Source: Bacillales bacterium UBA7029 (GTDB taxonomy: Bacteria > Bacillota_I > Bacilli_A > RFN20 > CAG-826). From it: a stretch of 64,000 nucleotides of DNA. Within the stretch, counting starts at the first letter, position 1, and every line of letters starts with the position of its first letter. The stretch is from the NCBI GenBank assembly GCA_002494205.1, contig DLBE01000043.1, forward strand, positions 15,893 to 79,892, read 5' to 3'. The position numbers were made by a program, and so were the translations under genes. The notes below the pieces were generated by a model. The model had not been told where the DNA came from, searched no databases, and saw only the letters and a program-made list of their open reading frames with translations. Below are positions 37,525 to 49,966 of this stretch, in pieces.

Positions 37525-38349
37525 TTATTCCAGGTTTACTTTGTTAGAAATATAGTAATGGTATTGCTTCTCTTGACAATATTTTTTAATGTCTTCTTTT
37601 AAATTAGAATCTTTTGTGTATTCTAAGAAGAATACTTCTTTATTTTTCTTTTTCATTAAAGATGCAATTTCTTTGTAAAAATTTTGATCTTCTTTATTTT
37701 GTTTAGCGAATATATCATGCTCATAATTTGTAATTAAAGAGAAGACTTCTTCTTGGTGATAACCCCAAACATAATTAAAAACGTTATCTTTATTATCGTT
37801 TGAGTCGTCAAAGTATTCAGCGCCGCCATTAACCATAACTTTTAATCCAAGTTTATTTACTCTATTCATTACACTTTTAAGGGAGTTGGCAAAATCTTGA
37901 TAATTTAATTCTTCCTCTTTTGCAATAGAGTAAACATCGACATTATCAAGGTAAACTCCAAAAGCGCCTTTGTTTTTATACTTTTTTGCAAGCGAAACAA
38001 CTAAATTTTGCCAAGACTTGTTAGTAACATCGATCCATCTTTCATCTGGCCAATTGTCATAATCTTTGAACGTCAAATCTTTGAATTCTTCATAATAATC
38101 ACGATAATTTTCCAATGAACCGACATTTAAATAAGCTAAGCAATTAGTGCCATTTTTTGTTAATTTTTCAATATTTGATTTAGAAAATTCATCAATCTCT
38201 AACGCTACATATTTGTAATTAATAAAACTTTTAATGTTATTATTAGCTCTTCCTAAAAATGCTCCATAATCATTTGAAGTAAAATTAGTCTTTGAATTAC
38301 AACTTACTAAAGTAAATGCAGCGATTAATGAGATAGCAATTTTTTTCAT
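37525..38349 (-). CDS. lipoprotein of the GH114 family (endo-alpha-1,4-polygalactosaminidase / TM1410-like TIM barrel)
   Basis: MKKIAISLIAAFTLVSC lipobox. LAYLNVGSLENYRDYY...NWPDERWIDVTNKSWQ...GAFGVYLDNVDVY matches the GH114 consensus. ATG 38349 is internal to the track ORF. Confidence 0.6.
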   Translation of the reverse strand: MKKIAISLIAAFTLVSCNSKTNFTSNDYGAFLGRANNNIKSFINYKYVALEIDEFSKSNIEKLTKNGTNCLAYLNVGSLENYRDYYEEFKDLTFKDYDNWPDERWIDVTNKSWQNLVVSLAKKYKNKGAFGVYLDNVDVYSIAKEEELNYQDFANSLKSVMNRVNKLGLKVMVNGGAEYFDDSNDNKDNVFNYVWGYHQEEVFSLITNYEHDIFAKQNKEDQNFYKEIASLMKKKNKEVFFLEYTKDSNLKEDIKKYCQEKQYHYYISNKVNLE

Positions 38350-38418
38350 AGTAATAAAATTGTATCGCAAATGAAAGTTGGGATGAATTTTTAAAAATAA
38401 AAGAGTAACCTATTTAGT

Positions 38419-39174
38419 ATGAAGATACTTTTAGTAGATGATGAACAACTTCAATTAATCAGATTAGAAAAAGCTTGTAGGGCTGTTATACCTAGTGCTG
38501 ATTATTTTATTTTTACAAATCCGGTTAAAGCACTTGAAGAAAGTGAAAAAACCAAATTTGATGTTGCGTTTTTGGATATTGAAATGCCATCAATCAAAGG
38601 GATTCAACTTGCTAAAAAATTAAAGAAAAATAATCCTCTTTTAAGTGTTATTTTTGTAACGGCCTATACCGACTATGCTTTACAAGCTTTTAATATTCAT
38701 GCTTCTGGTTACATTACTAAGCCTGTTAACGAAGCGAAAATTAAAGAAGAAATTGAAAATCTTAAAAACATTTCTCCTTTACCGACTACTAAAAAATTAC
38801 AAGTTAAATGCTTCGGCAATTTTGAAGTATTTTGCAAAGGAGAACCAGTTAAATTCTCTTATAAAAAGTCTAAAGAAGTTTTCGCCTATCTTATAGATAG
38901 AGAAGGCTCTGCAATTAATATTAATGAGCTTAATGCAGTTTTGTGGGAGGAAGATCACCCTTCATATTTAAGAAACTTAATTGCAGATATTCAAAAAACT
39001 TTAAAATCACTTGATTGTGAGGATGTTTTCGTTAAACGCCATAACGAATGCTATATTGATGTTGATAAAATCGATTGCGATGCTTACGAATATAAAAAAG
39101 ATAATCCAAACGCTGTAAGACTTTATCGAGGCGAATACATGATGCAATATTCATGGCCAATATTTGATGAATAA
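38419..39174 (+). CDS. orphan response regulator: REC domain plus SARP/OmpR-like winged-helix output domain
   Basis: LLVDDE, phospho-acceptor D in FLDIEMP, T in VIFVTAY, K in GYITKP. C-terminal QVKCFGNFEVFCKGEPVKF...EVFAYL...LNAVLWEE is a winged helix of SARP type. Confidence 0.75.
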   Translation: MKILLVDDEQLQLIRLEKACRAVIPSADYFIFTNPVKALEESEKTKFDVAFLDIEMPSIKGIQLAKKLKKNNPLLSVIFVTAYTDYALQAFNIHASGYITKPVNEAKIKEEIENLKNISPLPTTKKLQVKCFGNFEVFCKGEPVKFSYKKSKEVFAYLIDREGSAININELNAVLWEEDHPSYLRNLIADIQKTLKSLDCEDVFVKRHNECYIDVDKIDCDAYEYKKDNPNAVRLYRGEYMMQYSWPIFDE

Positions 39175-39197
39175 AAATAGATTAGAATTTATTTAAA

Positions 39198-40397
39198 ATG
39201 TCTGAAATTGAAAGAACAAATAAGCTTATTTTGATGTTTAAGAATTATGAAGTTCTTTCTTTTTCATATGAATCAGAACCTAAACGAGTTGTTCATATAA
39301 TAGAAAAATTAGAGCATTTTGATAAAGCTCCCTATGGAGTTTTGCATCCACTTTATGACGAGGATACCGCACTTTTGAAATTTTTCAATTCGAGATCTAT
39401 CGCACCTCAAAGATATGATTACAATGAAATTCTTAAAGCTACTAATAGTAAGAATGGATTTGAACTATCTTTTAAAGGACACGGCTTATCTTTAACAAAC
39501 CATTATTGGTTTAAAAAAGAGGGTGAAAAATTAAAATACGAAGATATAAATTTCTTCACTAACAAGTGGGATGATTCCTTTGGAAGAGCGGTATTAAATA
39601 AAGATTATGAGAAACTAAAAAACTGTGATTTAAATGTTCCTGATATTGTTACTAATGGTTGGGCAGTTAAAGGATGGATTTGGGATAATGGTCCAAAGCT
39701 TTATAAATTCTCTAGAGATAAAATTAGCAGCGCAGAAGCTCTTGGTGAAGTTTTGGGTTCAAGACTTGCTAGAAGAATATTTCCAGATGATCAAGTTCTT
39801 CATTATGTACTTAAAAAAATTGGAAATAATTATGCTTCAGCAGCACCTGTACTTATTGGAATTGATGAAGAATTAGTTCCGCTTTCAAATTATTTTAAAT
39901 CTGATGTTTTTCACACTTATTTAAAAAGATTTAATAATAGAGAAGTCCAAAATGAATTTTTTAAATTAATAGAGCATTCTGGTATTCCAGGAATTAAAGA
40001 ATTTTTCATTAAAATTACATGTGTTAGACACTTATGTTTCATTTCCGATTTACATTTTGATAACATTTCTATTATTAAAAATAATAAAACAGGAAAACTA
40101 AGAATGTCTCCTTTATACGATTTAGCAGGAGCTTTCGGGACTTCTGAGTCAGGAAGAAAGTTTGTTTCTAACATTAATAAAGGAACATATCTAGTACTTT
40201 TCTATGTCTTTAATGAGCTAAATCCTGATTGGGATTATTCTTGGTATGACCCAAAACGACTTGACGGTTTCGAGAATGAAATAATCGAAATATTAACAAA
40301 ATCAGAATTTTATACACCCGAATTATTAGATAGAATAATAAATGTTTTCCGCTACCAAAAGGAAGCGTTAGATAAAATAGCAAAAAAGATTAAATAA
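39198..40397 (+). CDS. HipA-like Ser/Thr kinase family protein
   Basis: 399 aa; catalytic region ISDLHFDNISIIKNNKTGKLRMSPLYDLAGAFG matches the HipA_C DxHxxNxS...PxYD motif. 23-nt gap to the response-regulator gene. Confidence 0.55.
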   Translation: MSEIERTNKLILMFKNYEVLSFSYESEPKRVVHIIEKLEHFDKAPYGVLHPLYDEDTALLKFFNSRSIAPQRYDYNEILKATNSKNGFELSFKGHGLSLTNHYWFKKEGEKLKYEDINFFTNKWDDSFGRAVLNKDYEKLKNCDLNVPDIVTNGWAVKGWIWDNGPKLYKFSRDKISSAEALGEVLGSRLARRIFPDDQVLHYVLKKIGNNYASAAPVLIGIDEELVPLSNYFKSDVFHTYLKRFNNREVQNEFFKLIEHSGIPGIKEFFIKITCVRHLCFISDLHFDNISIIKNNKTGKLRMSPLYDLAGAFGTSESGRKFVSNINKGTYLVLFYVFNELNPDWDYSWYDPKRLDGFENEIIEILTKSEFYTPELLDRIINVFRYQKEALDKIAKKIK

Positions 40398-40398
40398 C

Positions 40399-40432
40399 TG
40401 TGACACATTTGTGGCAGATGCTTTGCTAGAAT
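40399..40432 (+). promoter_or_regulatory. heptamer direct repeats TGTGACA / TGTGGCA (11-bp register) abutting a TAGAAT -10 box upstream of the precursor gene
   Basis: Repeats at 40399-40405 and 40410-40416; TAGAAT at 40427-40432; ATG at 40455. Confidence 0.45.
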
Positions 40433-40454
40433 ACATTCAGGATTGGAATTGATT

Positions 40455-40658
40455 ATGAGGAAAGAATTGTTAAAAGGTTTAACTGAGGAACAAATAATTA
40501 AAGTGCAACAATGTAGCGATGTTCGTGATTTAATGCAACTTGCTAAAGATGAAGGTGTTGAATTAAATGATGAGCAACTAAAAGCTGTATCAGGTGGCGC
40601 TTGTTCTAGTGAAACAGATAAAGAAGATTCAGCGCATAATAGAAAAATTGAAAGTTAA
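40455..40658 (+). CDS. RiPP precursor peptide, Nif11-like leader with GG cleavage motif
   Basis: MRKELLKGLTEEQIIKVQQCSDVRDLMQLAKDEGVELNDEQLKAVSGG | ACSSETDKEDSAHNRKIES. The leader resembles Nif11 leaders (SEEQLKAF...IAKEAGF.IT.EEL...VAGG). 19-aa acidic core with one Cys. ATG 40455 is internal to the track ORF, which starts at TTG 40443. Confidence 0.75.
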   Translation: MRKELLKGLTEEQIIKVQQCSDVRDLMQLAKDEGVELNDEQLKAVSGGACSSETDKEDSAHNRKIES

Positions 40659-40660
40659 TA

Positions 40661-42055
40661 ATGTTTTTCCGTTTAAAAGATAATGTTGCATTAAGAAAAT
40701 GGAGATATGTTGATCGTGCGATTTATAAAAAAGGCATAGATCAAGCTCTTGGGGTTTCAAAGGAAGAATTTGAAATCCTTTTGCTATGCGATGGAGAACA
40801 CGATTTAGAAAATAACAAAATAATTCAAGAATTAAAAAATAGAAACCTCATTGAAGAATGTAACAAAGGCGATAAATTAAATGAATGGTCCAAGTTAAAG
40901 GAGTATGATAACTACTATTTTCCACGTATGAATCTAATGATTACTGGAAAATGTAATCTTAATTGTTTGCATTGCTTTAATGCAAAAGATAACGCTCCAT
41001 TAAATTCCGAACTCTCTTTTGAAGAAATTTTAACTATCTTAGATCAAGCAAAAGATATTGGCATTCATTGTTTTACATTAACTGGTGGTGAGCCATTAGT
41101 TCATCGTAAATTTTTAGATATTGTAAAAGCTATTTATGAAAGAAATATGTTCATTTTTGAGCTTAACACTAATGGCTTACTAATTAACCAAAAGATGCTC
41201 GATTTCTTTAAAGAAATAGGTTGCTATCCTTTAATAAAAATTTCTTATGATGGAATTGGTTATCATAACTGGATTAGACAACATCCTAAAGCTGAAGAAC
41301 TTACTTTAAAAGCTATTGAATTATGCATCAAAAATGGCTTCAGAGTGAAAGCCCAAGTTCAAGTTAATCGTAAGAATTTGGATTCGATGTTTGAAACCGC
41401 AAAACTACTTGATAAGATGGGCGTTGATGAGATGAGAATTATAAGAACAACTGAAGCTCCTCGATGGGAAAAGAACGCACCTCAATCATCTTTAACAATT
41501 GAAGAATATTACGAAAATATGCTGGATTTTGCGGCAAAATTCATGAAATCTGGGATGAAAATGACTGTTGATGTTTGGCAGTTTTTACGAATTTATCCAA
41601 GGCACAAACTTTACTCACTTGTACCTATTTCTTGTAATAAAGATGAATTTAATATTCGTATTCCAATGTGTAAAGGTAACCGCGGAATGATTGCTGTTTC
41701 TTCAAAAGGAGAAGTTGTTCCATGCTTACAAATGTCTGGTTACTTTTTGGAAAAAGGTATCAGCTTAGGAAATTTGTTTAAAACGCCTTTAAAAGAATTA
41801 GTGAAAAATAGTCCCTATCTAGATTTAGCAATGGCGCCATTATTTAAACAAATTATTGAGAATGATAAATGTGGTAATTGTAAATACTACAAAGCCTGTA
41901 CCGGTGGTTGCCCTGCTTTGGGCTTATTATATTCTAAAGATATTAATTTCTACCATGAAGATATTACTAAATGCATTTTCTTTGAAAATGGTTGGTATGA
42001 AAAAGTTACAGAAACTTTAAAAGATTTTCATTTACAAAATCCTTTAAATATTTAG
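40661..42055 (+). CDS. radical SAM/SPASM peptide maturase with N-terminal RRE (PqqD-like) domain
   Basis: CNLNCLHC (CxxxCxxC); N-terminal ~90-aa PqqD-like RRE; C-terminal SPASM with CNKDEFNIRIPMCKGNRGM...VVPC...CGNCKYYKACTGGCPA. 3-nt gap to the precursor gene. Confidence 0.85.
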   Translation: MFFRLKDNVALRKWRYVDRAIYKKGIDQALGVSKEEFEILLLCDGEHDLENNKIIQELKNRNLIEECNKGDKLNEWSKLKEYDNYYFPRMNLMITGKCNLNCLHCFNAKDNAPLNSELSFEEILTILDQAKDIGIHCFTLTGGEPLVHRKFLDIVKAIYERNMFIFELNTNGLLINQKMLDFFKEIGCYPLIKISYDGIGYHNWIRQHPKAEELTLKAIELCIKNGFRVKAQVQVNRKNLDSMFETAKLLDKMGVDEMRIIRTTEAPRWEKNAPQSSLTIEEYYENMLDFAAKFMKSGMKMTVDVWQFLRIYPRHKLYSLVPISCNKDEFNIRIPMCKGNRGMIAVSSKGEVVPCLQMSGYFLEKGISLGNLFKTPLKELVKNSPYLDLAMAPLFKQIIENDKCGNCKYYKACTGGCPALGLLYSKDINFYHEDITKCIFFENGWYEKVTETLKDFHLQNPLNI

Positions 42056-42072
42056 AATTTTCTTTCTTTGAC

Positions 42073-42105
42073 AATGCCAGCAAATTGAGTTTGGCATTTT
42101 TTATT
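42073..42105 (+). terminator. intrinsic terminator after the rSAM gene
   Basis: aatgcca-gcaaattgagtt-tggcatt hairpin followed by ttttatt. Confidence 0.6.
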
Positions 42106-42143
42106 TAGATTGTGTTTTACGCAATCTAAATTAATGATATAAT
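42106..42143 (+). promoter_or_regulatory. perfect inverted repeat TAGATTG-N9-CAATCTA followed by extended -10 TGATATAAT, 7 nt before ATG 42151 (leaderless)
   Basis: IR at 42106-42112 / 42122-42128; TG at 42135-42136; TATAAT at 42138-42143. Confidence 0.5.
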
Positions 42144-42150
42144 CATTATT

Positions 42151-42531
42151 ATGAAAAAGAATAAAGTTAGTATCTCTAATCCAGAAGAACTAGAAAAAAA
42201 TCTGCAATATTCTTCTCCAGTTACATGGATTGCTTTAGGAGTTGTCTTTTCTCTTATTGTGGGCCTTTTTGTATGGTCTTGCGTTTTCAAAATTAAAGAC
42301 AAAATTATAGGCAAAGCGAAAATTGTCAGTTCTGAAGTTACTCTTGTGGTTGACGCTAATTCTATTTCAAAATTAAAGGTTGGCCAAAAAGTTTATATTA
42401 ATAATTTAGAAGGCGAAATCTTAAAAATTGTTGAGAAAAAGCCTATTATTTCTCATTTTGCATTGGCTGATGGAGAGTACGAATACACCATTATTAATGA
42501 AATTAAACCAATAGAATACTTGATCAAATAA
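42151..42531 (+). CDS. small membrane-anchored protein, possible minimal HlyD/MFP-like export accessory
   Basis: 126 aa; one N-terminal TM; beta-rich C-terminus KAKIVSSEVTLVVDANSISKLKVGQKVYINNLEGEILKIV resembles an MFP barrel-sandwich hairpin. Confidence 0.35.
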   Translation: MKKNKVSISNPEELEKNLQYSSPVTWIALGVVFSLIVGLFVWSCVFKIKDKIIGKAKIVSSEVTLVVDANSISKLKVGQKVYINNLEGEILKIVEKKPIISHFALADGEYEYTIINEIKPIEYLIK

Positions 42532-42533
42532 TT

Positions 42534-44708
42534 ATGGAAAAGGTAAAGAAACCAAAGACTAAAGGCAAAGGAGTTGCAAATACTCCGTTAATCATGCAAT
42601 TAGAAGCTCTAGAATGTGGAGCTGCTTCTTTAACAATGGTTATGGCTTACTATGGAAAGTGGGTACCTCTTGAACAAGTTAGAGTTGATTGTGGTGTTTC
42701 TAGAAACGGAAGTAACGCTAAGAACATTCTTAGAGCTGCTCAAAAATATGGGTTTAAAACATCAGGTTATGCTTACAATATTCAAAAATTAAAAGAAAGA
42801 GGCAAATTTCCAGCGATCATTCACTGGGGTGGAGGCCACTTTGTTGTTTTAAATGGTTTTAGGGGTAATAAAGCAATTATTAATGACCCAGCTAAAGGAC
42901 TTGTTAAAGTCGATTTGAAGACTTTTGACAAAATATTTACCGGAATTTATCTTGAACTTGTTCCAGATGAAAATTTTGTTCCTAGCGGAAAAAGAAAATC
43001 AATTTTTTCATTTGCTAAGAAACGTCTTAAAGGCGCTTTGCCATTAATTATTTTCTTTTCAATTACGACAATTATTTTCTATGTTTTTAGCATTATTTCG
43101 CCTGCTATGAGCCAAGTTTTTGTCGATAAACTTTTAGGTGGGCAAAACCCGTCATGGCTGTTGCCATTTATTCTAGTATTTGCAAGTGTAGCATTGCTAC
43201 AAGTCGTCGTAACAGTAATTCAGAGCATATCGCAATATAAGATTCGAGGCAAACTAGATTTAATTGGTTCAACAACTTATATGTGGAGAATTTTAAGACT
43301 CCCTATTGAATTCTTCTCGCAAAGAATGGTTGGAGATTTGCAAGGACGTCAATCTGAAAACGCATCAATTGCAGAAACATTGGTTAATGTTTTCGCTCCT
43401 TTATTATTTAACACAATTATGATTGTGGTTTATCTGTTTGTAATGATTAATAAGAGCTGGATTTTATCTCTTGTGGGAGTAATAACAGTCCTTATAAATA
43501 TCTTTGTGTCGACAAGAATTTCTAAAGTCAGGGTCAATATTTCCCGTGTTCAAGCTAGAGATAACGCAAGACTTTCTGGCATGACTTCAAAAGGCATTGA
43601 AATGGTCGAAACAATTAAATCAAATGGTGCTGAGCAAGCTTATTTTGAATCTTGGTCCGATGTTCAAAACGATGTTGTTAAAGGAAAGCTTAGAATGTCG
43701 AAAATAAATGCATCACTAGGTTTAATTCCTTCATTTGCAGCAATGCTTGCAAATTACTCAATATTAATTCTTGGTGTTTTCTTCACTATTAAGGGTGAAT
43801 TCACAATTGGTTCAATTTTAGCTTTCCAAGGTTTACTTGGTTCATTTATGCAACCTGTTAATACTCTTATTTCAAGTGGTCAGACATTACAAGAAATGAG
43901 AACCATGATGGAAAGAGTGGATGATGTTTTGGAATATCCTTTAGATGAAAATGTTATTCGTGAAATTAAGACTGACAATGTTTCAAAAATTAAAGGTAAC
44001 CTCATTTTGAAAGATATAACTTTTGGTTATTCTAGACTAGACGAACCAATTTTAAAGAATTTTAATCTGGAAATAAAACAAGGACAAAAGGTTGCAATTG
44101 TTGGTTCAACAGGAAGCGGAAAATCAACGCTATCAAAATTAATTTCAGGTTTATATTCACCTTGGTCAGGAGAAATTATTTTTAATGGCAAGAAGATTAC
44201 TGAAATTGATCACGAAATTTTTACTTCATCAATTGCAGTTGTTGATCAAGATATAACAATGTATGAAGACACAATTTTAAATAATATTAAAATGTGGGAT
44301 GAATCTATTGAAGATTACGAAGTAATAATGGCATGTAATGATGCTCAAATACATAAACAAATCATGGCAAGAGAAGGTGGTTATAATGCTCCAGTTTTGG
44401 AAGGTGGTAAAAACTTCTCTGGTGGTGAGAAACAAAGACTTGAGATTGCTCGTTCTTTAGCTTCTGATCCAAGCATCATCATTTTAGATGAAGCTACAAG
44501 TGCGTTAGACGCCAAAACAGAATCTGAAGTTGTTAAAGCAATTAAAGCTCGTGGCATCACAACAATTGTTATTGCTCATAGATTATCTACCATTAGGGAT
44601 GCTGATTTGATTGTTGTTCTTAATAAAGGCGTAATTGTGGAGCAAGGAACTCACGAAGAATTAATGAAAAATAAAAGTTCATATTACGAACTTGTTACAA
44701 ATGATTAG
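42534..44708 (+). CDS. peptidase-containing ABC transporter (C39 peptidase plus 6 TM plus NBD)
   Basis: C39 Cys in QLEALECGAASL and His in GGGHFVVL; Walker A GSTGSGKST; LSGGEKQR; ILDEATSALD. Confidence 0.9.
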   Translation: MEKVKKPKTKGKGVANTPLIMQLEALECGAASLTMVMAYYGKWVPLEQVRVDCGVSRNGSNAKNILRAAQKYGFKTSGYAYNIQKLKERGKFPAIIHWGGGHFVVLNGFRGNKAIINDPAKGLVKVDLKTFDKIFTGIYLELVPDENFVPSGKRKSIFSFAKKRLKGALPLIIFFSITTIIFYVFSIISPAMSQVFVDKLLGGQNPSWLLPFILVFASVALLQVVVTVIQSISQYKIRGKLDLIGSTTYMWRILRLPIEFFSQRMVGDLQGRQSENASIAETLVNVFAPLLFNTIMIVVYLFVMINKSWILSLVGVITVLINIFVSTRISKVRVNISRVQARDNARLSGMTSKGIEMVETIKSNGAEQAYFESWSDVQNDVVKGKLRMSKINASLGLIPSFAAMLANYSILILGVFFTIKGEFTIGSILAFQGLLGSFMQPVNTLISSGQTLQEMRTMMERVDDVLEYPLDENVIREIKTDNVSKIKGNLILKDITFGYSRLDEPILKNFNLEIKQGQKVAIVGSTGSGKSTLSKLISGLYSPWSGEIIFNGKKITEIDHEIFTSSIAVVDQDITMYEDTILNNIKMWDESIEDYEVIMACNDAQIHKQIMAREGGYNAPVLEGGKNFSGGEKQRLEIARSLASDPSIIILDEATSALDAKTESEVVKAIKARGITTIVIAHRLSTIRDADLIVVLNKGVIVEQGTHEELMKNKSSYYELVTND

Positions 44709-44720
44709 AAAGGAGTAAAC

Positions 44721-46901
44721 ATGGGTTGGTTTGAAGAGCAAGTAAAACAAAGAAAAGAACTCGATGCAAAAACATTCGAAGAATCTTTCATGTCGCTTGC
44801 TGGATTAAAAGTCGATAATAAAGAAAGTTTGACTGACGAACAAATAAAAGATAACTTTGTTATTAGTCAAATACTTTCATATTTCAACCATCAACCTATT
44901 GATATTCCAAAGTCTATTGATAATTTTGAAGATAAATTAAATTATGTTATTTCACAAACGGATTTCGTTTATAGAAAGATCAATTTAGATAAATCTTATT
45001 CCGACAATAACAAGTTTCCAATCCTTATTTTTGTCCCATTTAATAACTCTCCAGTTTTACTTTTCCCTAAAGGAAAGGATAAATACTATTATATAAATTA
45101 CGCGACAGGAAAAAGAGCTACTATTGATTCTTATTTAGTGAACGGACTAGAACTTGAAGCATATACTTTCTATCGTCCACTTCCAAAATCAAAAATTTCA
45201 TTTAAAGGCTACGCTTCTTACTTAAAGAAATCGGTTAAACCATTGGATTTAATTTTGCTTATTTTGTTCACAATTGCCGCCTCTGGTGTCGGACTTTTAA
45301 TCCCTTTTCTCACTAAGAGATTGACAGGTGAAGTTGTTAGCAAAGGTGAAATCCCATTCTTTATTTTAATTTCAAGTTTTGTTGTAACCGCTGCAACAGG
45401 TTTACTTTTAGTAAAAGCGGTTCAGTCTTTTATCAATATTAAAGTTTCAACTAAGATTGAGAAGTCTATTCAAGAAGCCACAATGATGAGAGTTTTATCT
45501 CTCCCAGCTTCTTTCTTTAAGAAACATAATACCGGTGAACTTGGCTTAAGATTTAGCAATGTAGTCTTTTTAGCAAGATTAATCATTGCTGGAATGTTTA
45601 CAACGCTAACTTCGGTTATCATGTCTTTTGCTTATGTATTCCAATTAATTGGTTTTGCCCCATCCTTAATTTGGCCTGTTGTACTAATTTTATTAGTGAA
45701 CACAAGTTTTACAATTTTAATTTCTTTTATTCAGAAAGAATATGCTAAAAAACAACTTGAACTAAGCGCTAAAGAAGCTGGTGTTACTTATGAAATGATT
45801 AATGGCATCCAAAAGATTAGACTTTCCGGAAGCGAAAAACGTATTTTTGCAAAATGGGCTAGTGCTTATTCTAAGAGTGCAAAACTTAAATATAATCCTC
45901 CTATGATTTTAAAACTTAGTGGAGCATTGTCCTTATTAATTTCATTATTAGGTACTCTACTTATTTATTTTGTGGCCGCCAAAAACAACATTGATGCAAG
46001 TAGTTACATGGCATTTATGTCTAGCTATGGTGTTTTATCTGCTGCTTTTGCATCTTTATCTCAAGTTGCTAGTACATTATTTACTATTCAACCAATTTAT
46101 GAAATGGCTCGCCCAATTTTGGAAAGCGAACCTGAATCTAATGAAGGAAAAATTGAACTTAAACACATTACTGGAAATATCACAATTAAAGATGTCTCCT
46201 TTAGATACACTGAAACTGGTCCACTTATCTTAAATAAGTTTAATTTAGACATTAAAGAAGGCGAATATCTTGCAATAGTTGGTCAAACAGGTTGTGGTAA
46301 ATCTACATTGGTGAGACTTTTACTTGGTTTTGAAAAACCTATAAATGGTGAAGTATTATATGATAATATAAACATTAATGATGTTAATTTAACTTCATTA
46401 AGAAAGAATATTGGTACTGTTATGCAAAATGGAACTTTATTCCATGCTGATATTCTATCTAACATCATTATTTCTAACCCGAGTCTAAAAAACGAAGATG
46501 CTTGGGAAGCAGCGGAGATTGCTAATATTGCCGAAGATATTAGAGAAATGCCAATGGGAATGAGAACTGTTATATCGGAAGGTCAAGGTGGTATCTCTGG
46601 TGGTCAAAAACAAAGGATTATGATTGCTAGAGCAATCGTCCATAAACCTAAAATTCTCATCTTTGATGAGGCAACATCCGCTTTAGATAATAAAACCCAA
46701 AAATCTATTTCAGATTCAATCAGTAAACTCAATTGTACACGTATTGTAATCGCGCATAGACTATCGACAATTAAAAATGCTGATCGAATTATTATGCTTG
46801 AGGGTGGCAAAATTATAGAGCAAGGAGATTATAAAACTTTGATTGCTAAAAATGGCAAGTTTGCTGAACTTGTTGAAAGACAAAGACTTGATACTAATTA
46901 G
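44721..46901 (+). CDS. partner ABC transporter with a degenerate, Cys-less C39-like N-terminal domain
   Basis: 726 aa; the N-terminal ~150 aa lack a catalytic Cys; 6 TM; Walker A GQTGCGKST; ISGGQKQR; IFDEATSALD. SD AAAGGAG. Confidence 0.85.
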   Translation: MGWFEEQVKQRKELDAKTFEESFMSLAGLKVDNKESLTDEQIKDNFVISQILSYFNHQPIDIPKSIDNFEDKLNYVISQTDFVYRKINLDKSYSDNNKFPILIFVPFNNSPVLLFPKGKDKYYYINYATGKRATIDSYLVNGLELEAYTFYRPLPKSKISFKGYASYLKKSVKPLDLILLILFTIAASGVGLLIPFLTKRLTGEVVSKGEIPFFILISSFVVTAATGLLLVKAVQSFINIKVSTKIEKSIQEATMMRVLSLPASFFKKHNTGELGLRFSNVVFLARLIIAGMFTTLTSVIMSFAYVFQLIGFAPSLIWPVVLILLVNTSFTILISFIQKEYAKKQLELSAKEAGVTYEMINGIQKIRLSGSEKRIFAKWASAYSKSAKLKYNPPMILKLSGALSLLISLLGTLLIYFVAAKNNIDASSYMAFMSSYGVLSAAFASLSQVASTLFTIQPIYEMARPILESEPESNEGKIELKHITGNITIKDVSFRYTETGPLILNKFNLDIKEGEYLAIVGQTGCGKSTLVRLLLGFEKPINGEVLYDNININDVNLTSLRKNIGTVMQNGTLFHADILSNIIISNPSLKNEDAWEAAEIANIAEDIREMPMGMRTVISEGQGGISGGQKQRIMIARAIVHKPKILIFDEATSALDNKTQKSISDSISKLNCTRIVIAHRLSTIKNADRIIMLEGGKIIEQGDYKTLIAKNGKFAELVERQRLDTN

Positions 46902-46915
46902 TGGAGGCTAATAAT

Positions 46916-47203
46916 ATGAAACATAGTTTAGAAAAAGATGTACTTACACTCTTCTTAGAAGGAGAACTTAATTCTTTTAATTCTGAAGATGTTGAGAAAG
47001 AAATTGAAGAAATACTTAAAACAAATTCCTTTAAATCAATTGTTTTAGATTTAAAAGATTTGACTTATATTTCATCTGCTGGTCTTAGAATAATTATTAG
47101 ACTTAAACAACAATGTGATAATACTTCAATTATTCACACTCCAAAGGATGTTTTAAATATTTTTAAAATGGTAGGATTTACTAGTATTTTAAAAATTGAT
47201 TAA
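46916..47203 (+). CDS. STAS-domain protein (anti-sigma-factor antagonist, SpoIIAA/RsbV-like)
   Basis: LDLKDLTYISSAGLRIIIRL contains the conserved phosphorylatable Ser region. SD GTGGAGG 8 nt upstream of ATG 46916. Confidence 0.75.
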   Translation: MKHSLEKDVLTLFLEGELNSFNSEDVEKEIEEILKTNSFKSIVLDLKDLTYISSAGLRIIIRLKQQCDNTSIIHTPKDVLNIFKMVGFTSILKID

Positions 47204-47205
47204 TT

Positions 47206-49056
47206 ATGGCTTTAAAAGAAAGACAATTTGTTGACGCTTATCATGATAATGAAGCAGATGCCAATAGGCATATGTCTTTTGTTAATGCAGCTGCTGGTAT
47301 TTTGGCTTTAATTATTTGGGCTTTGTATTTAGCAAGAGTATTTACAATTCCTGATCATTTTTTCCCAGTTGTCATGATTTTATTCCCTACAGCAGCAGTA
47401 TTGTTATTTGTGCCACTTTTTCTTGTGAAAACTGATCTTGTAAGAAGACCTGCTTATAAATACTTTATAATATTTTCACTTTTGGCTGTTGTTATTGCAT
47501 TAAATATATCAATTCCAAAACATTCTCTTTTATTTTGGCCCTTTATTATTTTAATCGCGAATCACTATTACAATCCTACGCTAGGGCGTGTAGTTTATGT
47601 TGTGACTATTGTTGCAATGCTTATTTGCATGTATTTAGGCATGTTTTTTGGTGAATTTGATGAAAACTTATTTGGTGGTGGTGTCATTTTAAAAGATGGT
47701 ACAATCGGAACAGTTGAAACATTTACTGAACGAAAAGAGCTTCTAGATCAACTTGCTAAAAACGGAAATAACCGTTACATTAAAGCTCTTATTTTCTATT
47801 ATTTCCCTAGAGCGATGATTGTTACATTGTTCTTTATGGTAAGTAATCTTTTAAACAAAAGAACATATAAACTGCTTGATGCTGAAATTAGAGCTCACGA
47901 CGAACAAGAAAAAGCAAAAACAGAGCTAGAAGTTGCTAAAGGCATCCAACTAAATACACTTCCAGGTGAATTTGCGTCTAATGACGGTGTAGAAATCTTA
48001 GGTGAACTAAGAGCCGCAAAAGAAGTTGGTGGAGATCTTTATGATTATGTTGATATTGATAAAGACCACGTCGCTATTTTAATTGGAGATGTTTCTGGTA
48101 AAGGCGTTCCTGCTGCTATGTTTATGATGAAGACAATCACTTCATTTAGAGACTTTGCAACTAAAGGAAAAAGCCCATCTGAAATTCTTAAAGCAGTTAA
48201 TAAATCAATTTTTAAAGGAAATACTGACTTCATGTTTGTAACTTGTTTCCTTGCTATTTTAGACAAAATAACAGGCAAACTTGTTTATGCAAATGCAGGT
48301 CATAATCCACCTATTATTGGTTCAAATAAAAATTATAAATTTTTAAATAGTAAACCTGGTTTAATTTTAGGCTGTTTTGAGAATTCAAATGTTGTTGATG
48401 AAGAAATTATTTTAAAACCAGGTGAGACTATTACTTTATATACTGACGGAATTACTGAAGCAAAAAACGGAGAAGGAAAACTATTTGGTGAAAGTAGATT
48501 CCTTAATGTTTTTAATAAGAAAAACTACACTTGCACAATTGAGCTCCATAGTCAGATTAAAGATGAAATTGCAGAATTTGTTAAAGATGCACCTCAAAGT
48601 GACGATATAACAATTTTAACATTAAGATATAAAGGTGATAATTTACAATACGATCAAAAACATTTTGAAGCCAAAAAAGAAAATACCGTCGATATTCTTG
48701 GCTTCATTAAAGATTTCTCTGCAAGACATAATTTTTCAGGCGAATTTACAAATAAACTTTTGATAGTAGGTGACGAACTTGCCTCAAATATTATCAACCA
48801 TGGTTATAAAAATAACGGTGGACCTATCTTTATTCGTTTACTTTTTAATGAAGATAAAAAAGAATTTGTATTAACAATTATCGATAGTGCTGTTGAATTT
48901 AATCAACTAGAGGTTGAGGACACCCCAATTTCTGGAGAAGCTAAAAAACAAAAAATTGGCGGACTTGGTTTACTAATTGTTAAAAACATTATGGATGAAT
49001 ATTCTTATCAAAGAGTGAACAATAAGAACATCTTGGTATTAAAGAAAAACCTTTAA
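47206..49056 (+). CDS. membrane sensor fused to a PP2C (SpoIIE/RsbU-type) phosphatase and a GHKL anti-sigma-factor-type Ser kinase
   Basis: 616 aa; ~5 N-terminal TM; PP2C motifs GDVSGKGVPAAMFMM ... TDGITEA ... DDITIL; C-terminal HATPase_c of RsbW type ELASNIINHGY ... GGLGLLIVKNIMDE. Confidence 0.75.
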   Translation: MALKERQFVDAYHDNEADANRHMSFVNAAAGILALIIWALYLARVFTIPDHFFPVVMILFPTAAVLLFVPLFLVKTDLVRRPAYKYFIIFSLLAVVIALNISIPKHSLLFWPFIILIANHYYNPTLGRVVYVVTIVAMLICMYLGMFFGEFDENLFGGGVILKDGTIGTVETFTERKELLDQLAKNGNNRYIKALIFYYFPRAMIVTLFFMVSNLLNKRTYKLLDAEIRAHDEQEKAKTELEVAKGIQLNTLPGEFASNDGVEILGELRAAKEVGGDLYDYVDIDKDHVAILIGDVSGKGVPAAMFMMKTITSFRDFATKGKSPSEILKAVNKSIFKGNTDFMFVTCFLAILDKITGKLVYANAGHNPPIIGSNKNYKFLNSKPGLILGCFENSNVVDEEIILKPGETITLYTDGITEAKNGEGKLFGESRFLNVFNKKNYTCTIELHSQIKDEIAEFVKDAPQSDDITILTLRYKGDNLQYDQKHFEAKKENTVDILGFIKDFSARHNFSGEFTNKLLIVGDELASNIINHGYKNNGGPIFIRLLFNEDKKEFVLTIIDSAVEFNQLEVEDTPISGEAKKQKIGGLGLLIVKNIMDEYSYQRVNNKNILVLKKNL

Positions 49057-49114
49057 TGAATAGACACAAAAATAAGAAATTTAAGGGAATTCCTGGGGAT
49101 TTTGCAAAAAAAGA

Positions 49115-49140
49115 AAAGCACAAATAAGTGCTTTTTTCTT
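49115..49140. terminator. bidirectional terminator between the kinase/phosphatase gene and tRNA-Ser
   Basis: aaagcac-aaataa-gtgcttt hairpin with T-runs on both strands. Confidence 0.7.
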
Positions 49141-49143
49141 TCC

Positions 49144-49234
49144 TGGCGGAGTAGGCGAGGTTCGAACTCGCGCACCAGTTACCCGGTCTAACGGTTTAGC
49201 AAACCGTCCCCTTGAGCCTCTTGGGTACTACTCC
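49144..49234 (-). tRNA. tRNA-Ser (anticodon GCU)
   Basis: Reverse complement is GGAGTAGTACCCAAGAGGCTCAAGGGGACGGTTTGCTAAACCGTTAGACCGGGTAACTGGTGCGCGAGTTCGAACCTCGCCTACTCCGCCA. Confidence 0.85.
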
Positions 49235-49297
49235 AGCGAAAAGTATTATAACATTATTTTTATTTTAATAAAGCATAAACATGACTATAATGAAAAT

Positions 49298-49966
49298 ATG
49301 AAATATCCAGTAGTTGTCTACGTATTCTTAGGATTATTTTTCGTTGCATCTATTCTTCAGTTCATTTTTGCATTCACCGAAAACCAAAGATTTAGAAGAA
49401 AAGAAAAATTCGTCTGCATGTTAATGCTTGGCATTGCCGCAATTTTTGCGCTTCCAAATCAACCATTAATCTATATTGGCGCCTTTTTAGCAATGTTTGG
49501 CGACATTTTTGTTTTAAGGAAGAAAACATTTAACTTAGGTGTTGTTTGTTTCTTTGTGTCTCACTTAGCCTACATTTTTGAATGTTTATTCATGATTGTT
49601 GGAGAAGCGCATATAAGATGGTTCCATCACATAATATTTATTTTTACTTATCTTGTTGTTGCTTTAACAATGTTCGCCATACTAAAAAGAGGGAATAAGA
49701 GATCAATGCTAAATATGATTGCTCAATCCTTTTATTTCGCTATTTTAGCTGTCTATATTCCAGTATTTAGCTTTGCTATTTCAACAATAGGATCTTATAT
49801 GTTTTTATCTTTAATAGGTTCTATTGTATTTATAGTTTCTGATTCAATTCTTGTCTGGACGCACTTTGGTCACAAATTTAAAAGGTACGACTTTTATATT
49901 ATGCTGACGTACCTTGTTGCTGAATTCTTAATTATTGCTGGATTTGTATTAACGATTATCAAATAA
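49298..49966 (+). CDS. YhhN-family (lysoplasmalogenase-like) membrane protein
   Basis: 222 aa; ~7 TM; similarity to the YhhN family is moderate. Confidence 0.45.
   Translation: MKYPVVVYVFLGLFFVASILQFIFAFTENQRFRRKEKFVCMLMLGIAAIFALPNQPLIYIGAFLAMFGDIFVLRKKTFNLGVVCFFVSHLAYIFECLFMIVGEAHIRWFHHIIFIFTYLVVALTMFAILKRGNKRSMLNMIAQSFYFAILAVYIPVFSFAISTIGSYMFLSLIGSIVFIVSDSILVWTHFGHKFKRYDFYIMLTYLVAEFLIIAGFVLTIIK

What the first reader, a model, noticed from the sequence alone, without database searches (positions are those of the whole stretch)
40455..40658. Precursor core has a single Cys in an acidic Ser/Thr-rich 19-mer, an atypical substrate for a sactisynthase-like enzyme
Known sacti- and ranthipeptide precursors carry multiple Cys, for example SCIFF with six, while streptide-type rSAM products use Lys-Trp. 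Here the predicted core has exactly one Cys at core position 2, plus D/E at core positions 5, 7, 9, 10 and 18 and S/T at 3, 4, 6, 11 and 19. Two outcomes are possible. One is a single Cys-to-Asp/Glu/Thr thioether macrocycle, a mini-ranthipeptide. The other is a non-thioether chemistry such as epimerisation, as occurs on Nif11-leader proteusins, or a C-C crosslink. A second Cys sits in the leader at position 20.
Basis: inference. Interest (0 to 1): 0.7.

Follow-up and report, generated by a model that had tools for sequence, protein, structure and literature searches.

The report
Single-cysteine peptide precursor beside radical SAM enzyme
This is a real gene for a small secreted peptide whose one cysteine, placed right after the cutting site, marks a large unstudied family of rumen and human-gut peptides and mini-proteins that an iron-sulfur radical enzyme probably modifies.

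Summary

The gene is under purifying selection. It sits 2 nt upstream of an rSAM/SPASM gene in a conserved cluster: regulator, kinase-like gene, precursor, rSAM, short HlyD-like gene, C39-ABC exporter, second ABC, STAS, SpoIIE.

The Cys is invariant in 116/116 distinct homologous short cores. More widely, 119 of 129 leader-bearing cores next to this rSAM family carry a Cys within five residues of GG. This holds whatever follows: short peptides, Zn ribbons, lanthipeptide-like cores or ~70-aa domains.

The acidic positions are not conserved.

Most likely the rSAM acts on this Cys, probably making one small thioether ring (Cys2 to Glu5), before GG cleavage and export. The chemistry is inferred, not shown.

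Single-Cys rSAM peptides are already known (NxxC, enteropeptins), so the core is unusual but has precedent. No curated family or paper covers this enzyme or precursor. I rate it a new variant of a known kind.

The parts
38419..39174 (+). Response regulator: receiver domain plus an unassigned C-terminal domain. It is the first gene of the conserved cluster.
   Evidence: Pfam Response_reg, E 4e-22. NCBIfam alignments to OmpR/PhoB-type regulators extend to about residue 190. The C-terminal 124 aa have no Pfam hit. Syntenic in 13 related loci.
39198..40397 (+). HipA/CtkA-like putative Ser/Thr kinase, directly upstream of the precursor.
   Evidence: Weak Pfam HipA_C hit, E 0.0015. A family profile gives CtkA as best PDB hit, E 0.012, aligned across the catalytic loop. 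D284, H286, N289 and D308 are invariant in 14 homologues. Syntenic in most Bacilli-clade loci.
40399..40416 (+). Direct repeat TGTGACA-cattT-GTGGCA (TGTGRCA-N4-TGTGRCA, 11-bp period), where a -35 element would lie. Candidate regulator-binding box.
   Evidence: The only exact match in the window. The same repeat at the same distance from a -10-like hexamer is conserved upstream of the precursor in at least 11 related loci. Its function is inferred.
40427..40432 (+). -10-like hexamer TAGAAT, preceded by TGc (extended -10-like), 10 nt after the repeat.
   Evidence: Direct reading. The position is conserved in homologous loci as TAAAAT, TAGAAT or TATTAT. The generic two-hexamer scan did not score it.
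40455..40598 (+). Leader peptide (48 aa) ending ...EQLKAVSGG. It is a shortened Nif11-like double-glycine leader.
   Evidence: purifying selection. HMM built from homologous leaders. Sister precursors with the same leader hit TIGR03798 at E 6e-5 to 1.6e-3, and more distant relatives pass its cut-off.
40599..40655 (+). Core peptide ACSSETDKEDSAHNRKIES (19 aa). Invariant Cys2 is at 40602..40604, Glu5 (the conserved Cys+3 position) at 40611..40613, and the conserved C-terminal motif HNRKIES at 40635..40655. The stop codon is 40656..40658.
40661..42055 (+). rSAM/SPASM peptide maturase (464 aa) with an N-terminal ~90-aa domain that may bind the leader.
   Evidence: Pfam Radical_SAM and SPASM. C98/C102/C105 and the seven SPASM Cys are invariant in 32 homologues. 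AF2 pTM 0.80. Nearest structures are SkfB, SuiB, ChlB, anSME, PqqE and CteB. No NCBIfam model reaches its cut-off.
42151..42531 (+). Short (126 aa) HlyD-like membrane protein. Only the N-terminal part of the NHLP-system secretion protein is present.
   Evidence: TIGR03794 residues 2-64 of 421, E 3.5e-6. The same short length is conserved in related loci.
42534..44708 (+). C39 peptidase / ABC exporter (NHLM ABC1-like). This is the predicted leader-cleaving transporter.
   Evidence: TIGR03796 839.7 bits against a cut-off of 853.3. Pfam Peptidase_C39, ABC_membrane and ABC_tran. The catalytic motif QLEALEC28G, H102FVV and D118P are present.
44721..46901 (+). Second ABC permease/ATPase, without a peptidase domain (NHLM ABC2-like).
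   Evidence: TIGR03797 647 bits against a cut-off of 709. Pfam ABC_membrane and ABC_tran.
46901..47203 (+). STAS-domain protein (anti-sigma-antagonist type).
   Evidence: Pfam STAS, E 1.7e-13. Syntenic across all clades of the rSAM family.
47206..49056 (+). Membrane protein fusing a SpoIIE (PP2C) phosphatase to an RsbW-like HATPase. It is the last gene of the cluster.
   Evidence: Pfam SpoIIE E 5.5e-52 and HATPase_c_2 E 2.3e-19. Unrelated, non-cluster genes follow.

Best explanation
The ORF encodes a ribosomal precursor peptide.

Proposed pathway:
1. Its 48-aa Nif11-like leader docks on the N-terminal domain of the adjacent rSAM/SPASM enzyme.
2. The enzyme acts on the one invariant residue of the core, the Cys one residue after the Gly-Gly site. 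The outcome with the most precedent is one intramolecular thioether from Cys2 to a nearby downstream residue. In this short-peptide subfamily that is most probably the conserved Cys+3 position (Glu5 here), giving a four-residue C-S-S-E ring of NxxC/ranthipeptide type, with a mass change of -2 Da.
3. The C39 domain of the NHLM-type ABC exporter cuts after Gly48 and exports the roughly 2.1-kDa hydrophilic peptide.
4. The peptide's conserved C-terminal H-R-K-I-E-S-type motif is probably the part read by a receptor. The cluster carries its own response regulator, a kinase-like gene and a STAS/SpoIIE module, and the precursor promoter carries a conserved direct-repeat box. The product therefore looks like a signalling peptide rather than a membrane-active bacteriocin.

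Shown: the gene is real and conserved, the cluster architecture is conserved, Cys is invariant, the flanking motifs are conserved, the rSAM/SPASM cluster ligands are present, and the C39 catalytic residues are present.

Inferred: that the rSAM modifies this peptide, that the Cys is the site, the thioether and its partner residue, cleavage at GG, and the signalling role.
For: 1. Tight coupling. The precursor stop lies 2 nt before the rSAM start. Gaps are 1-30 nt in most of the 15 Bacilli-clade loci that have such a precursor.
2. Among 116 distinct homologous short cores, Cys is present in 116/116 and is the only Cys in 113. The position before it is A or G. Cys+1 is Ser in 79%. Cys+3 is T/S/E/D in 113/116, against 66-69% at Cys+2, +4 and +5. 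The middle varies in length and sequence.
3. The Cys is the only feature shared by all payload types found next to this rSAM family. 35 of 42 leader-bearing ORFs in genome loci have it, and 119 of 129 distinct cores across genome and metagenome loci have it. In 109 of those it is at core position 1 or 2, and it is preceded by G or A in 101 of 119.
4. In the human-gut loci inspected (L081, L119, L122), the rSAM is the only tailoring enzyme I recognised beside 5-8 such precursors (by ORF inspection).
6. Precedent. NxxcB makes one beta-thioether across i,i+3 and tolerates several acceptor residues (PMC9389541). PapB links Cys to Asp/Glu (PMC12373016). KgrA is a single-Cys sactipeptide precursor (PMC10288494; PMC12395415).
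7. GG cleavage. The C39 catalytic Cys, His and Asp are present, and LahT150 cleaves Nif11-type leaders at GG (PMC6363468).
8. Regulation. The direct-repeat box is conserved in at least 11 loci, and the regulatory genes are syntenic.
Against: - No product data exist. The chemistry rests on analogy.
- The rSAM reaches no curated thioether-maturase model: PapB 74.6 bits against 340, StsB 78.5 against 625. Its best, still far sub-threshold, hits are tetrapyrrole enzymes (AhbD, NirJ).
- Structural neighbours include non-thioether enzymes at equal rank: SuiB, anSME and PqqE.
- In precursors with long payloads, Cys+3 is not conserved (TSED 41% against 23% background). A fixed i,i+3 acceptor therefore cannot be the family-wide rule.
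- T/S/E/D interchange would also fit a phosphosite with phosphomimetic substitutes, and a kinase-like gene is adjacent.
- One natural cluster (L059) keeps an intact precursor although its rSAM has an internal deletion.
- Seven of 22 Bacilli-clade loci have the rSAM but no adjacent short precursor.
- Cys-free double-glycine peptides sit next to rSAM homologues in some Lachnospiraceae and Oscillospiraceae loci.
- Pfam does not recognise the N-terminal domain as an RRE.
Confidence: 0.4

Rival explanations
1. The rSAM modifies the Cys in a way that needs no fixed downstream partner. Options are oxidation of the Cys side chain (as anSME converts Cys to formylglycine), a minimal ring with a backbone neighbour (as in the enteropeptin thiomorpholine), epimerisation of the Cys, or linking the Cys to another molecule. 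The result would be a payload-independent N-terminal cap or tag.
Against: In about half of the cores the Cys is the first residue after GG. A ring to the preceding Gly would then span the bond that the C39 protease must cut. The anSME motif C-x-P/A-x-R is absent. The strong Cys+1 Ser and Cys+3 T/S/E/D conservation in the short subfamily is left unexplained. No precedent is known to me for an RRE-type rSAM making formylglycine on a RiPP.
Confidence: 0.22
2. The Cys is stapled to the conserved C-terminal motif, for example to Glu18, Ile17 or the C-terminal residue. That would give a nearly head-to-tail macrocycle of about 17 residues.
For: Both ends of the short cores are strongly conserved, while the middle varies in length (8-22 residues between them) and in sequence. 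The penultimate residue is E or D in 81%. PapB can couple a Cys to a carbon next to a carboxylate, including at the C-terminal residue (PMC12373016).
Against: Short cores that have lost the C-terminal motif still keep A-C-S-x-[TSED], for example ACSAEVTQKQNQ, ACSGEDKKDKGPTNNPF and GCSNDDDTTTKQPS. Zn-ribbon, lanthipeptide-like and domain payloads share the N-terminal Cys but have no such C-terminus. A five-residue basic-basic-hydrophobic-acidic-Ser motif is more than an acceptor site needs.
Confidence: 0.08
3. The short peptide is not an rSAM substrate. It is exported unmodified, or modified only by the adjacent HipA/CtkA-like kinase on Ser/Thr, as a pheromone. The rSAM serves other precursors where they exist.
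For: L059 keeps an intact precursor, kinase-like gene and exporter beside an internally deleted rSAM. Other clusters carry several Zn-ribbon precursors. Seven of 22 loci have the rSAM without a short precursor. The T/S versus E/D alternation at Cys+3 and a C-terminal ...R-K-x-E-S resemble kinase sites with phosphomimetics, and the kinase catalytic residues are invariant. LYEE peptides occur beside an ECF sigma gene with no rSAM nearby.
Against: In this window the short peptide is the only leader-bearing ORF in 64 kb, so the intact rSAM would have no substrate. The short cores carry the same Cys-after-GG hallmark as every other payload class. The stop-start spacing of 1-30 nt in most loci argues for co-expression. 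L059 is a single case and may be a decaying cluster or a misassembly.
Confidence: 0.12
4. The rSAM performs chemistry that does not involve the Cys: epimerisation as in proteusins or EpeE, or a C-C or C-O crosslink.
For: The fold is equally close to SuiB (C-C) and PqqE (C-C), and less close to EpeE/YydG (epimerase). Cys-free LYE[ED]xY cores lie beside 67-69%-identical rSAMs in L019, L022 and L030.
Against: The core has no aromatic residue for a streptide- or PQQ-like link. Cys is the only invariant core residue, in 116/116 short cores and about 92% of all payload types, which such chemistry would not require. The LYEE peptides track an ECF sigma gene rather than the rSAM.
Confidence: 0.08

Closest known systems
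NxxcA/NxxcB (streptococcal NxxC RaS-RiPP)
   Same: One rSAM/SPASM enzyme is reported to install a beta-thioether in a short precursor. Donor and acceptor are three residues apart, and the acceptor position tolerates several residues (PMC9389541).
   Different: There the acceptor (Asn) lies N-terminal to the Cys, and the system sits in a streptococcal quorum-sensing-regulated RaS-RiPP network with a different leader. Here the candidate acceptor is C-terminal (C-x-x-[T/S/E/D]), the leader is Nif11-like with a GG site, and export is by an NHLM-type C39 ABC system. No NxxcB model appeared among the 25 NCBIfam hits listed out of 81.
Enteropeptins (KgrA/KgrC)
   Same: A short hydrophilic peptide from a gut Firmicute whose precursor has a single Cys and is modified by an rSAM enzyme (PMC10288494). 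The ring is minimal (PMC12395415).
   Different: The enteropeptin ring is a six-membered thiomorpholine joining the Cys to the alpha-carbon of the residue just before it (N-methylornithine). No arginase or methyltransferase was found among the cluster genes here. Such a ring would span the GG cleavage bond in the half of the family whose Cys is the first core residue.
Freyrasin (PapA/PapB) and thermocellin (CteA/CteB, SCIFF) ranthipeptides
   Different: PapA carries six such links and, from my own knowledge, SCIFF precursors have six Cys. This core has one Cys. PapB scores 74.6 bits against a cut-off of 340. The precursor has no SCIFF hit.
Nif11-leader peptides with C39 (AMS/PCAT) export, e.g. 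prochlorosins and the Lachnospiraceae Lah cluster
   Same: Double-glycine leaders of Nif11 type, many different cores sharing one leader, and cleavage at GG by a C39 domain (LahT150) (PMC6363468). NHLM-type ABC1 and ABC2 genes.
   Different: Those systems are lanthipeptide (LanM) pathways without a fixed residue after GG. Here the leader is shortened and falls below the Nif11 cut-offs, the tailoring enzyme is an rSAM, and a Cys follows GG almost universally.
SkfB and SuiB (nearest solved structures)
   Different: Sequence identity is only 12-17%. SkfB makes a Cys-Met thioether using (from my own knowledge) a [2Fe-2S] thioredoxin-like domain. SuiB makes a Lys-Trp C-C bond. The fold therefore does not identify the chemistry.

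Membership tests
Sactipeptide/ranthipeptide systems (rSAM thioether RiPPs) | Maturase with the CX3CX2C rSAM motif and a SPASM domain carrying auxiliary-cluster cysteines | tested here: met
   Pfam Radical_SAM and SPASM. C98/C102/C105 and C337, C355, C404, C407, C413, C417, C438 are invariant in 32 homologues.
Sactipeptide/ranthipeptide systems (rSAM thioether RiPPs) | Leader-binding RRE (PqqD-like) domain on or beside the maturase | tested here: inconclusive
   The AF2 model has a confident N-terminal ~90-aa beta/alpha domain (pLDDT 86-95), and the SuiB alignment covers nearly the full length. Pfam finds no PqqD/RRE match even at E of 10 or less.
Sactipeptide/ranthipeptide systems (rSAM thioether RiPPs) | Cys donor residue(s) conserved in the core | tested here: met
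   Cys is present in 116/116 short cores and within 5 residues of GG in 119/129 cores of all payload types. There is only one Cys, unlike most known members.
Sactipeptide/ranthipeptide systems (rSAM thioether RiPPs) | Maturase scores above the cut-off of a curated thioether-maturase model (PapB, StsB and others) | tested here: not met
   PapB 74.6 against 340, StsB 78.5 against 625. No model reaches its cut-off.
Sactipeptide/ranthipeptide systems (rSAM thioether RiPPs) | S-C(alpha/beta/gamma) thioether in the product | not testable with these tools
   Needs MS/MS and NMR of the modified peptide.
Nif11-like leader peptide family (TIGR03798 / PF07862) | Score above the family cut-off | tested here: not met
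   For the window precursor, Pfam Nif11 gives 13.4 bits against 23.8, and TIGR03798 is not listed at E of 10 or less. Sister precursors with the same leader score E 6e-5 to 1.6e-3. LanM-linked and human-gut relatives pass, at 32.3-37.3 bits against 32.3.
Nif11-like leader peptide family (TIGR03798 / PF07862) | Profile-level homology of this leader type to leaders that pass the cut-off | tested here: inconclusive
   hhalign of A3 against A4 gives probability 44% and E 2.4e-4, over the C-terminal 33 columns only.
Double-glycine leader / C39 (AMS/PCAT) export | Leader with the L-12, E-8, L-7, [VI]-4, G-2, G-1 spacing, and a transporter with a catalytic C39 domain | tested here: met
   By direct reading of ...L-N-D-E-Q-L-K-A-V-S-G-G, L-12, L-7, V-4, G-2 and G-1 fit. 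Position -8 is Q, with E at -9, so the usual E-8 is not met. C39 Pfam E 5e-32, with Cys28, His102 and Asp118 present. Actual cleavage was not tested.
NHLM/NHLP bacteriocin export cassette (TIGR03794/03796/03797) | All three components above their equivalog cut-offs | tested here: not met
   ABC1 839.7 against 853.3, ABC2 647.2 against 709.4, HlyD-like 26.2 against 156.2 with only 126 aa. This is a close relative with a truncated HlyD component.
Proteusins (NHLP/Nif11 leader plus rSAM epimerase) | Long NHLP-type leader and a PoyD-type epimerase | tested here: not met
Streptide-type (Lys-Trp) RaS-RiPPs | Trp and Lys partners in the core | tested here: not met
   The core contains no Trp, Tyr or Phe. 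Aromatic residues are about 2% of the 116 homologous cores.
SCIFF (TIGR03973) ranthipeptide precursors | Six-Cys C-terminal motif and a hit to the family model | tested here: not met
   No hit at E of 10 or less. The core has one Cys.

The most novel reading that the evidence does not exclude
This rSAM family installs a payload-independent modification on the Cys that directly follows the double-glycine site. The chemistry would be one not yet described for RiPPs, such as a Cys-derived N-terminal cap or a link to another molecule. The same enzyme family would then tag short pheromone-like peptides, Zn-ribbon mini-proteins, lanthipeptide cores and ~70-aa folded domains in rumen and human-gut Firmicutes. 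In the short-peptide branch, the adjacent HipA/CtkA-like kinase would additionally phosphorylate the Ser/Thr-rich core.
Probability: 0.2. Interest if true: 0.85.

Novelty: new variant of a known kind. Interest (0 to 1): 0.58.

Why it matters
If the inference holds, the single Cys is the defining handle of a large, unannotated family of rSAM-processed secreted peptides and mini-proteins.

- The family is widespread. The protein collection holds 1841 rSAM homologues, and the metagenome scan found more than 500 coding stretches, many on contigs labelled human gut.
- An enzyme that recognises a leader and modifies one Cys whatever follows it would be useful for site-specific peptide and protein modification.
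- The window's cluster is the simplest natural test case: one precursor, one enzyme, one Cys.
- The cluster also links a modified peptide to a response-regulator box, a kinase-like protein and a STAS/SpoIIE partner-switching module. That suggests an undescribed peptide-signalling circuit in uncultured rumen Bacilli.

Tried and rejected
- **Family scans of the precursor.** NCBIfam and Pfam gave only sub-threshold matches to GG-leader models.
- **RRE by sequence.** Pfam on the rSAM N-terminal 94 aa found nothing.
- **PDB by sequence.** Only generic rSAM-core matches, with SkfB best at E 2.6e-9.
- **LYEE peptides as decisive Cys-free substrates.** They conserve LYE[ED]xY and have no Cys. However, they sit beside an ECF sigma gene, sometimes with no rSAM nearby. 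They remain unresolved rather than a refutation.
- **Sigma-54 promoter.** The window reads TGGCA-N6-TTTGC at 40412..40426, but homologues do not conserve this, as the repeat order swaps. Rejected in favour of a direct-repeat regulator box.
- **Lipoprotein reading.** ...G-G-A-C-S-S resembles a lipobox, but the leader has no hydrophobic signal-peptide segment. Rejected.
- **Disulfide-linked dimer through the odd Cys.** Considered unlikely in an anaerobic rumen habitat. Not testable here.
- **Metal-binding peptide (Cys plus His plus carboxylates).** The His at position -6 is present in only about a third of cores.
- **Known RNA or repeat element.** Rfam found none across 38000..49500, and there are no meaningful repeats in the ORF.
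- **Generic promoter/terminator scan.** Not above the shuffled expectation.
- **Literature.** Eight searches found no paper on this rSAM or precursor family.
Full report
**1. The observation**

Window 40455..40658 (+) is an ORF of 67 codons plus a stop. It reads MRKELLKGLTEEQIIKVQQCSDVRDLMQLAKDEGVELNDEQLKAVSGG followed by ACSSETDKEDSAHNRKIES.

The core is very hydrophilic (GRAVY -1.57), with pI 4.9 and a mass of 2107 Da. By direct reading, the leader end fits the double-glycine spacing at L-12, L-7, V-4, G-2 and G-1. Position -8, usually E, is Q, with E at -9.

The ORF is a real gene:
- Leader pN/pS against seven homologues is 0.17-0.40, with near-saturated synonymous change. Two further comparisons gave pS above 1 and are unreliable.
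- 182 homologous small proteins exist.
- The identical peptide is found on 9 contigs from several samples.
- It is the only leader-type ORF in the whole 64-kb window, which has 32.9% GC.
- No Rfam family and no meaningful repeat overlaps it.

**2. The surroundings**

The precursor stop lies 2 nt before a 464-aa rSAM/SPASM gene at 40661..42055 (Pfam). The downstream genes are:
- a 126-aa HlyD-like stub;
- a C39-peptidase ABC exporter, at 839.7 bits on the NHLM ABC1 model against a cut-off of 853.3, with catalytic Cys28, His102 and Asp118 present;
- a second ABC protein (NHLM ABC2-like);
- a STAS protein;
- a membrane SpoIIE-phosphatase/RsbW-like fusion.

Upstream lie a response regulator and a 399-aa protein whose family profile best matches the HipA-like Ser/Thr kinase CtkA, with the catalytic Asp, His, Asn and Asp invariant. 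Unrelated, non-cluster genes follow from 49298.

This order is conserved in rumen metagenome-assembled genomes labelled Bacilli, Bacillales or Erysipelotrichaceae, where rSAM identity is 72-81%.

**3. The enzyme**

The rSAM motif (C98/C102/C105) and the seven SPASM cysteines are invariant in 32 diverse homologues. A possible eighth ligand, C325, is present in 26 of 32.

No NCBIfam model comes near its cut-off. The best hits are AhbD at 110 bits against 500 and ScmE at 105. PapB scores 75 against 340 and StsB 78 against 625. The same holds for human-gut relatives.

The N-terminal ~90 residues form a confident separate domain. Pfam does not call it an RRE. The fold says 'RiPP maturase' but does not identify the reaction.

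**4.

I collected 116 distinct short cores homologous to this one.
- Cys is present in all 116. It is the only Cys in 113 and sits at core position 2 in 111.
- The residue before it is Ala (88) or Gly (16).
- Cys+1 is Ser in 92.
- Cys+3 is Thr, Ser, Glu or Asp in 113. Lys, Asn, Gly and Ala are common at Cys+2 and Cys+4 but excluded at Cys+3.
- The middle varies in length and composition.

The particular acidic positions are not conserved. The family averages net charge +0.8, with an acidic N-terminal half and a basic C-terminal half, and this core at -2 is at the acidic extreme. The leader Cys is missing in 15 of 115. So the Cys and the GG site pass the test, and 'acidic' does not.

**5. The wider family changes the picture**

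Loci with this rSAM family carry other precursors that share the leader but have quite different cores:
- Zn-ribbon-like mini-proteins (x-C-[ST]-x...CPxCG...CxxCG) in the same Bacilli and Lachnospiraceae clusters;
- lanthipeptide-like cores in a 51-57%-identical clade, where the rSAM gene directly follows a LanM-like gene and the leaders pass the Nif11-like cut-off;
- in human-gut contigs (44-50% identity), operons of an ECF sigma gene, 5-8 precursors of about 130 aa, then the rSAM. I recognised no other tailoring enzyme in these operons.

The human-gut payloads include Cys-rich knots and apparently SH3-like ~70-aa domains.

Across 129 distinct leader-bearing cores from all loci, 119 have a Cys within five residues of GG. 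It is at position 1 or 2 in 109 and is preceded by Gly or Ala in 101 of 119.

In the long-payload cores no downstream position is conserved. T/S/E/D at Cys+3 is 41%, against a 23% background.

The single Cys is therefore not a quirk of this window. It is the one feature common to everything encoded next to this enzyme family, which is the strongest evidence available here that the rSAM acts at or through it. The C-S-x-[T/S/E/D] and HRKIES-type motifs are specific to the short-peptide branch.

**6. Most likely mechanism (inferred)**

The proposed order is leader docking, rSAM action on Cys2, GG cleavage and export by the C39 ABC transporter.

One thioether is the outcome with the most precedent. 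In this branch the conserved Cys+3 position (Glu5 here) is the obvious partner, giving a four-residue ring. Precedents:
- NxxcB makes a single i,i+3 beta-thioether and tolerates several acceptors (PMC9389541).
- PapB uses Asp/Glu acceptors (PMC12373016).
- CteB links Cys through a gamma-thioether (PMC9389541); from my own knowledge its acceptor is a Thr.
- LahT150 cuts Nif11-type leaders at GG (PMC6363468).

I put about 0.7 on 'the Cys is the rSAM's target' and about 0.4 on the full statement including the small thioether ring.

**7. Rivals**

(a) A partner-independent modification of the Cys: anSME-like oxidation, an enteropeptin-like ring with a backbone neighbour (PMC12395415), epimerisation, or intermolecular attachment. 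This fits the payload independence best. A ring to the preceding Gly would span the protease's scissile bond in the half of the family whose Cys is the first core residue (confidence 0.22).

(b) A staple from the Cys to the conserved C-terminus. Cores that lost the C-terminal motif but kept the N-terminal one argue against it (0.08).

(c) The short peptide is not an rSAM substrate. Support comes from L059, where the rSAM carries an in-frame internal deletion but the precursor is intact, and from the kinase-like gene together with the phosphosite-like T/S-versus-E/D pattern. Against it, this window has no other possible substrate (0.12).

(d) Chemistry that ignores the Cys (0.08).

**8. Cys-free neighbours**

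In three Lachnospiraceae loci with rSAMs 67-69% identical, the only double-glycine peptide nearby is ...ELSDDELDMISAAG|LYEEQYKNKNDFIDD. Its 21 relatives conserve LYE[ED]xY and have no Cys.

These genes sit next to an ECF sigma gene, and in L054 and L055 no rSAM is nearby. They may be separate signalling peptides.

A KKLSDEVLEKLIQDLFMPDENK core lies downstream of the rSAM in L035 and L044. These cases keep the Cys requirement from being absolute at the family level.

**9. Function**

The short core is hydrophilic. The cluster encodes its own regulators. The 57-nt region before the precursor holds a direct repeat, TGTGACAcattTGTGGCA (40399..40416), placed 10 nt upstream of a TGcTAGAAT -10-like element.

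This architecture is conserved in at least 11 homologous loci, and the repeat is the only exact match in the window. From my own knowledge it resembles a Pho-box-type activator site.

I infer an autoregulated secreted signal rather than a classical bacteriocin. This is not tested.

**10. Comparison with what is known, and novelty**

The system works like a leader-dependent rSAM/SPASM RiPP pathway with PCAT export.

It cannot be filed in any curated maturase or precursor family. Eight literature searches found no description.

I rate it a new variant of a known kind. There is a real chance, about 0.2, that the payload-independent Cys modification is new chemistry.

Noticed in passing
window 39198..40397 (+): A conserved HipA/CtkA-like putative Ser/Thr kinase lies directly upstream of the precursor, with catalytic D284, H286, N289 and D308 invariant in 14 homologues. 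The Ser/Thr-rich core, the T/S-versus-E/D alternation at Cys+3, and the C-terminal R-K-x-E-S could be kinase sites. A kinase inside an rSAM-RiPP cluster would be unusual.
   Followed up: partly
window 40399..40432 (+): A direct repeat TGTGRCA-N4-TGTGRCA lies 10 nt upstream of a TGnTAGAAT -10-like element. It is conserved upstream of the precursor in at least 11 related loci and is the only exact match in the window. It is probably the binding box of the cluster's response regulator.
   Followed up: partly
window 46901..49056 (+); also L019 7577..10521, L033, L034, L036, L037, L050: A STAS protein and a SpoIIE phosphatase (fused here to an RsbW-like HATPase) accompany the rSAM in every clade. 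Lachnospiraceae and human-gut loci add an ECF sigma factor and an anti-sigma kinase. A partner-switching circuit therefore seems wired to these peptide clusters.
   Followed up: partly
L003 2..1388, L005 88..683 and 3667..3957, L007 2546..3826, L061 2576..4645: The same leader and the same Cys-after-GG motif are fused to 40-55-aa Zn-ribbon-like cores (CPxCG...CxxCG). Up to six tandem genes lie upstream of the kinase-like gene. One has sub-threshold hits to Zn-binding and Cys-rich peptide families. The window's cluster lacks them.
   Followed up: partly
L032..L037, L041, L048 (Butyrivibrio proteoclasticus P18), L050: In a 51-57%-identical clade the rSAM gene directly follows a LanM-like gene. 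The Nif11-leader lanthipeptide-like precursors there again start GG-C-x-x-x-T. The rSAM may act as a tailoring enzyme on class II lanthipeptides.
   Followed up: no
L081, L119, L122 and other human-gut contigs (L085-L127): These operons run ECF sigma gene, 5-8 precursors of about 130 aa, then the rSAM. Every precursor reads ...ELSDEELDNVAGG(G)C... followed by Cys-rich knots or ~70-aa apparently SH3-like domains. The rSAM may therefore modify small folded proteins, not only peptides.
   Followed up: partly
L019 5706..5924, L022, L030, L052..L055: A separate family of about 72-aa double-glycine peptides has the core LYE[ED]xY... and no Cys. It sits next to the rSAM in some Lachnospiraceae and next to an ECF sigma gene with no rSAM in others. 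These may be signalling peptides, and it is unclear whether they are rSAM substrates.
   Followed up: partly
L059 6196..6586: This is a natural cluster in which the rSAM gene has an in-frame internal deletion (residues ~50-433 missing). The kinase-like gene, an intact short precursor, the exporter and the STAS/SpoIIE genes remain.
   Followed up: yes
window 42151..42531 (+): The HlyD-like component is only 126 aa, matching just residues 2-64 of the 421-residue NHLP secretion-protein model. This short length is conserved across related loci, so it is a true short form rather than a pseudogene.
   Followed up: partly
window 38419..39174 versus L056..L058 2650..4679: In some related loci a LytS-type histidine kinase (His_kinase plus HATPase_c) precedes the response regulator. 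In the window the regulator has no adjacent kinase. The upstream neighbour is an ORF on the opposite strand (37525..38370), whose counterpart in the matching contig L063 is annotated Glyco_hydro_114.
   Followed up: no
window 40661..40930 (rSAM residues 1-90): Two cysteines in the N-terminal accessory domain of the rSAM are conserved across the family: C43 (32/32, in an LLLCDG motif) and C67 (31/32). Their role is unknown.
   Followed up: no
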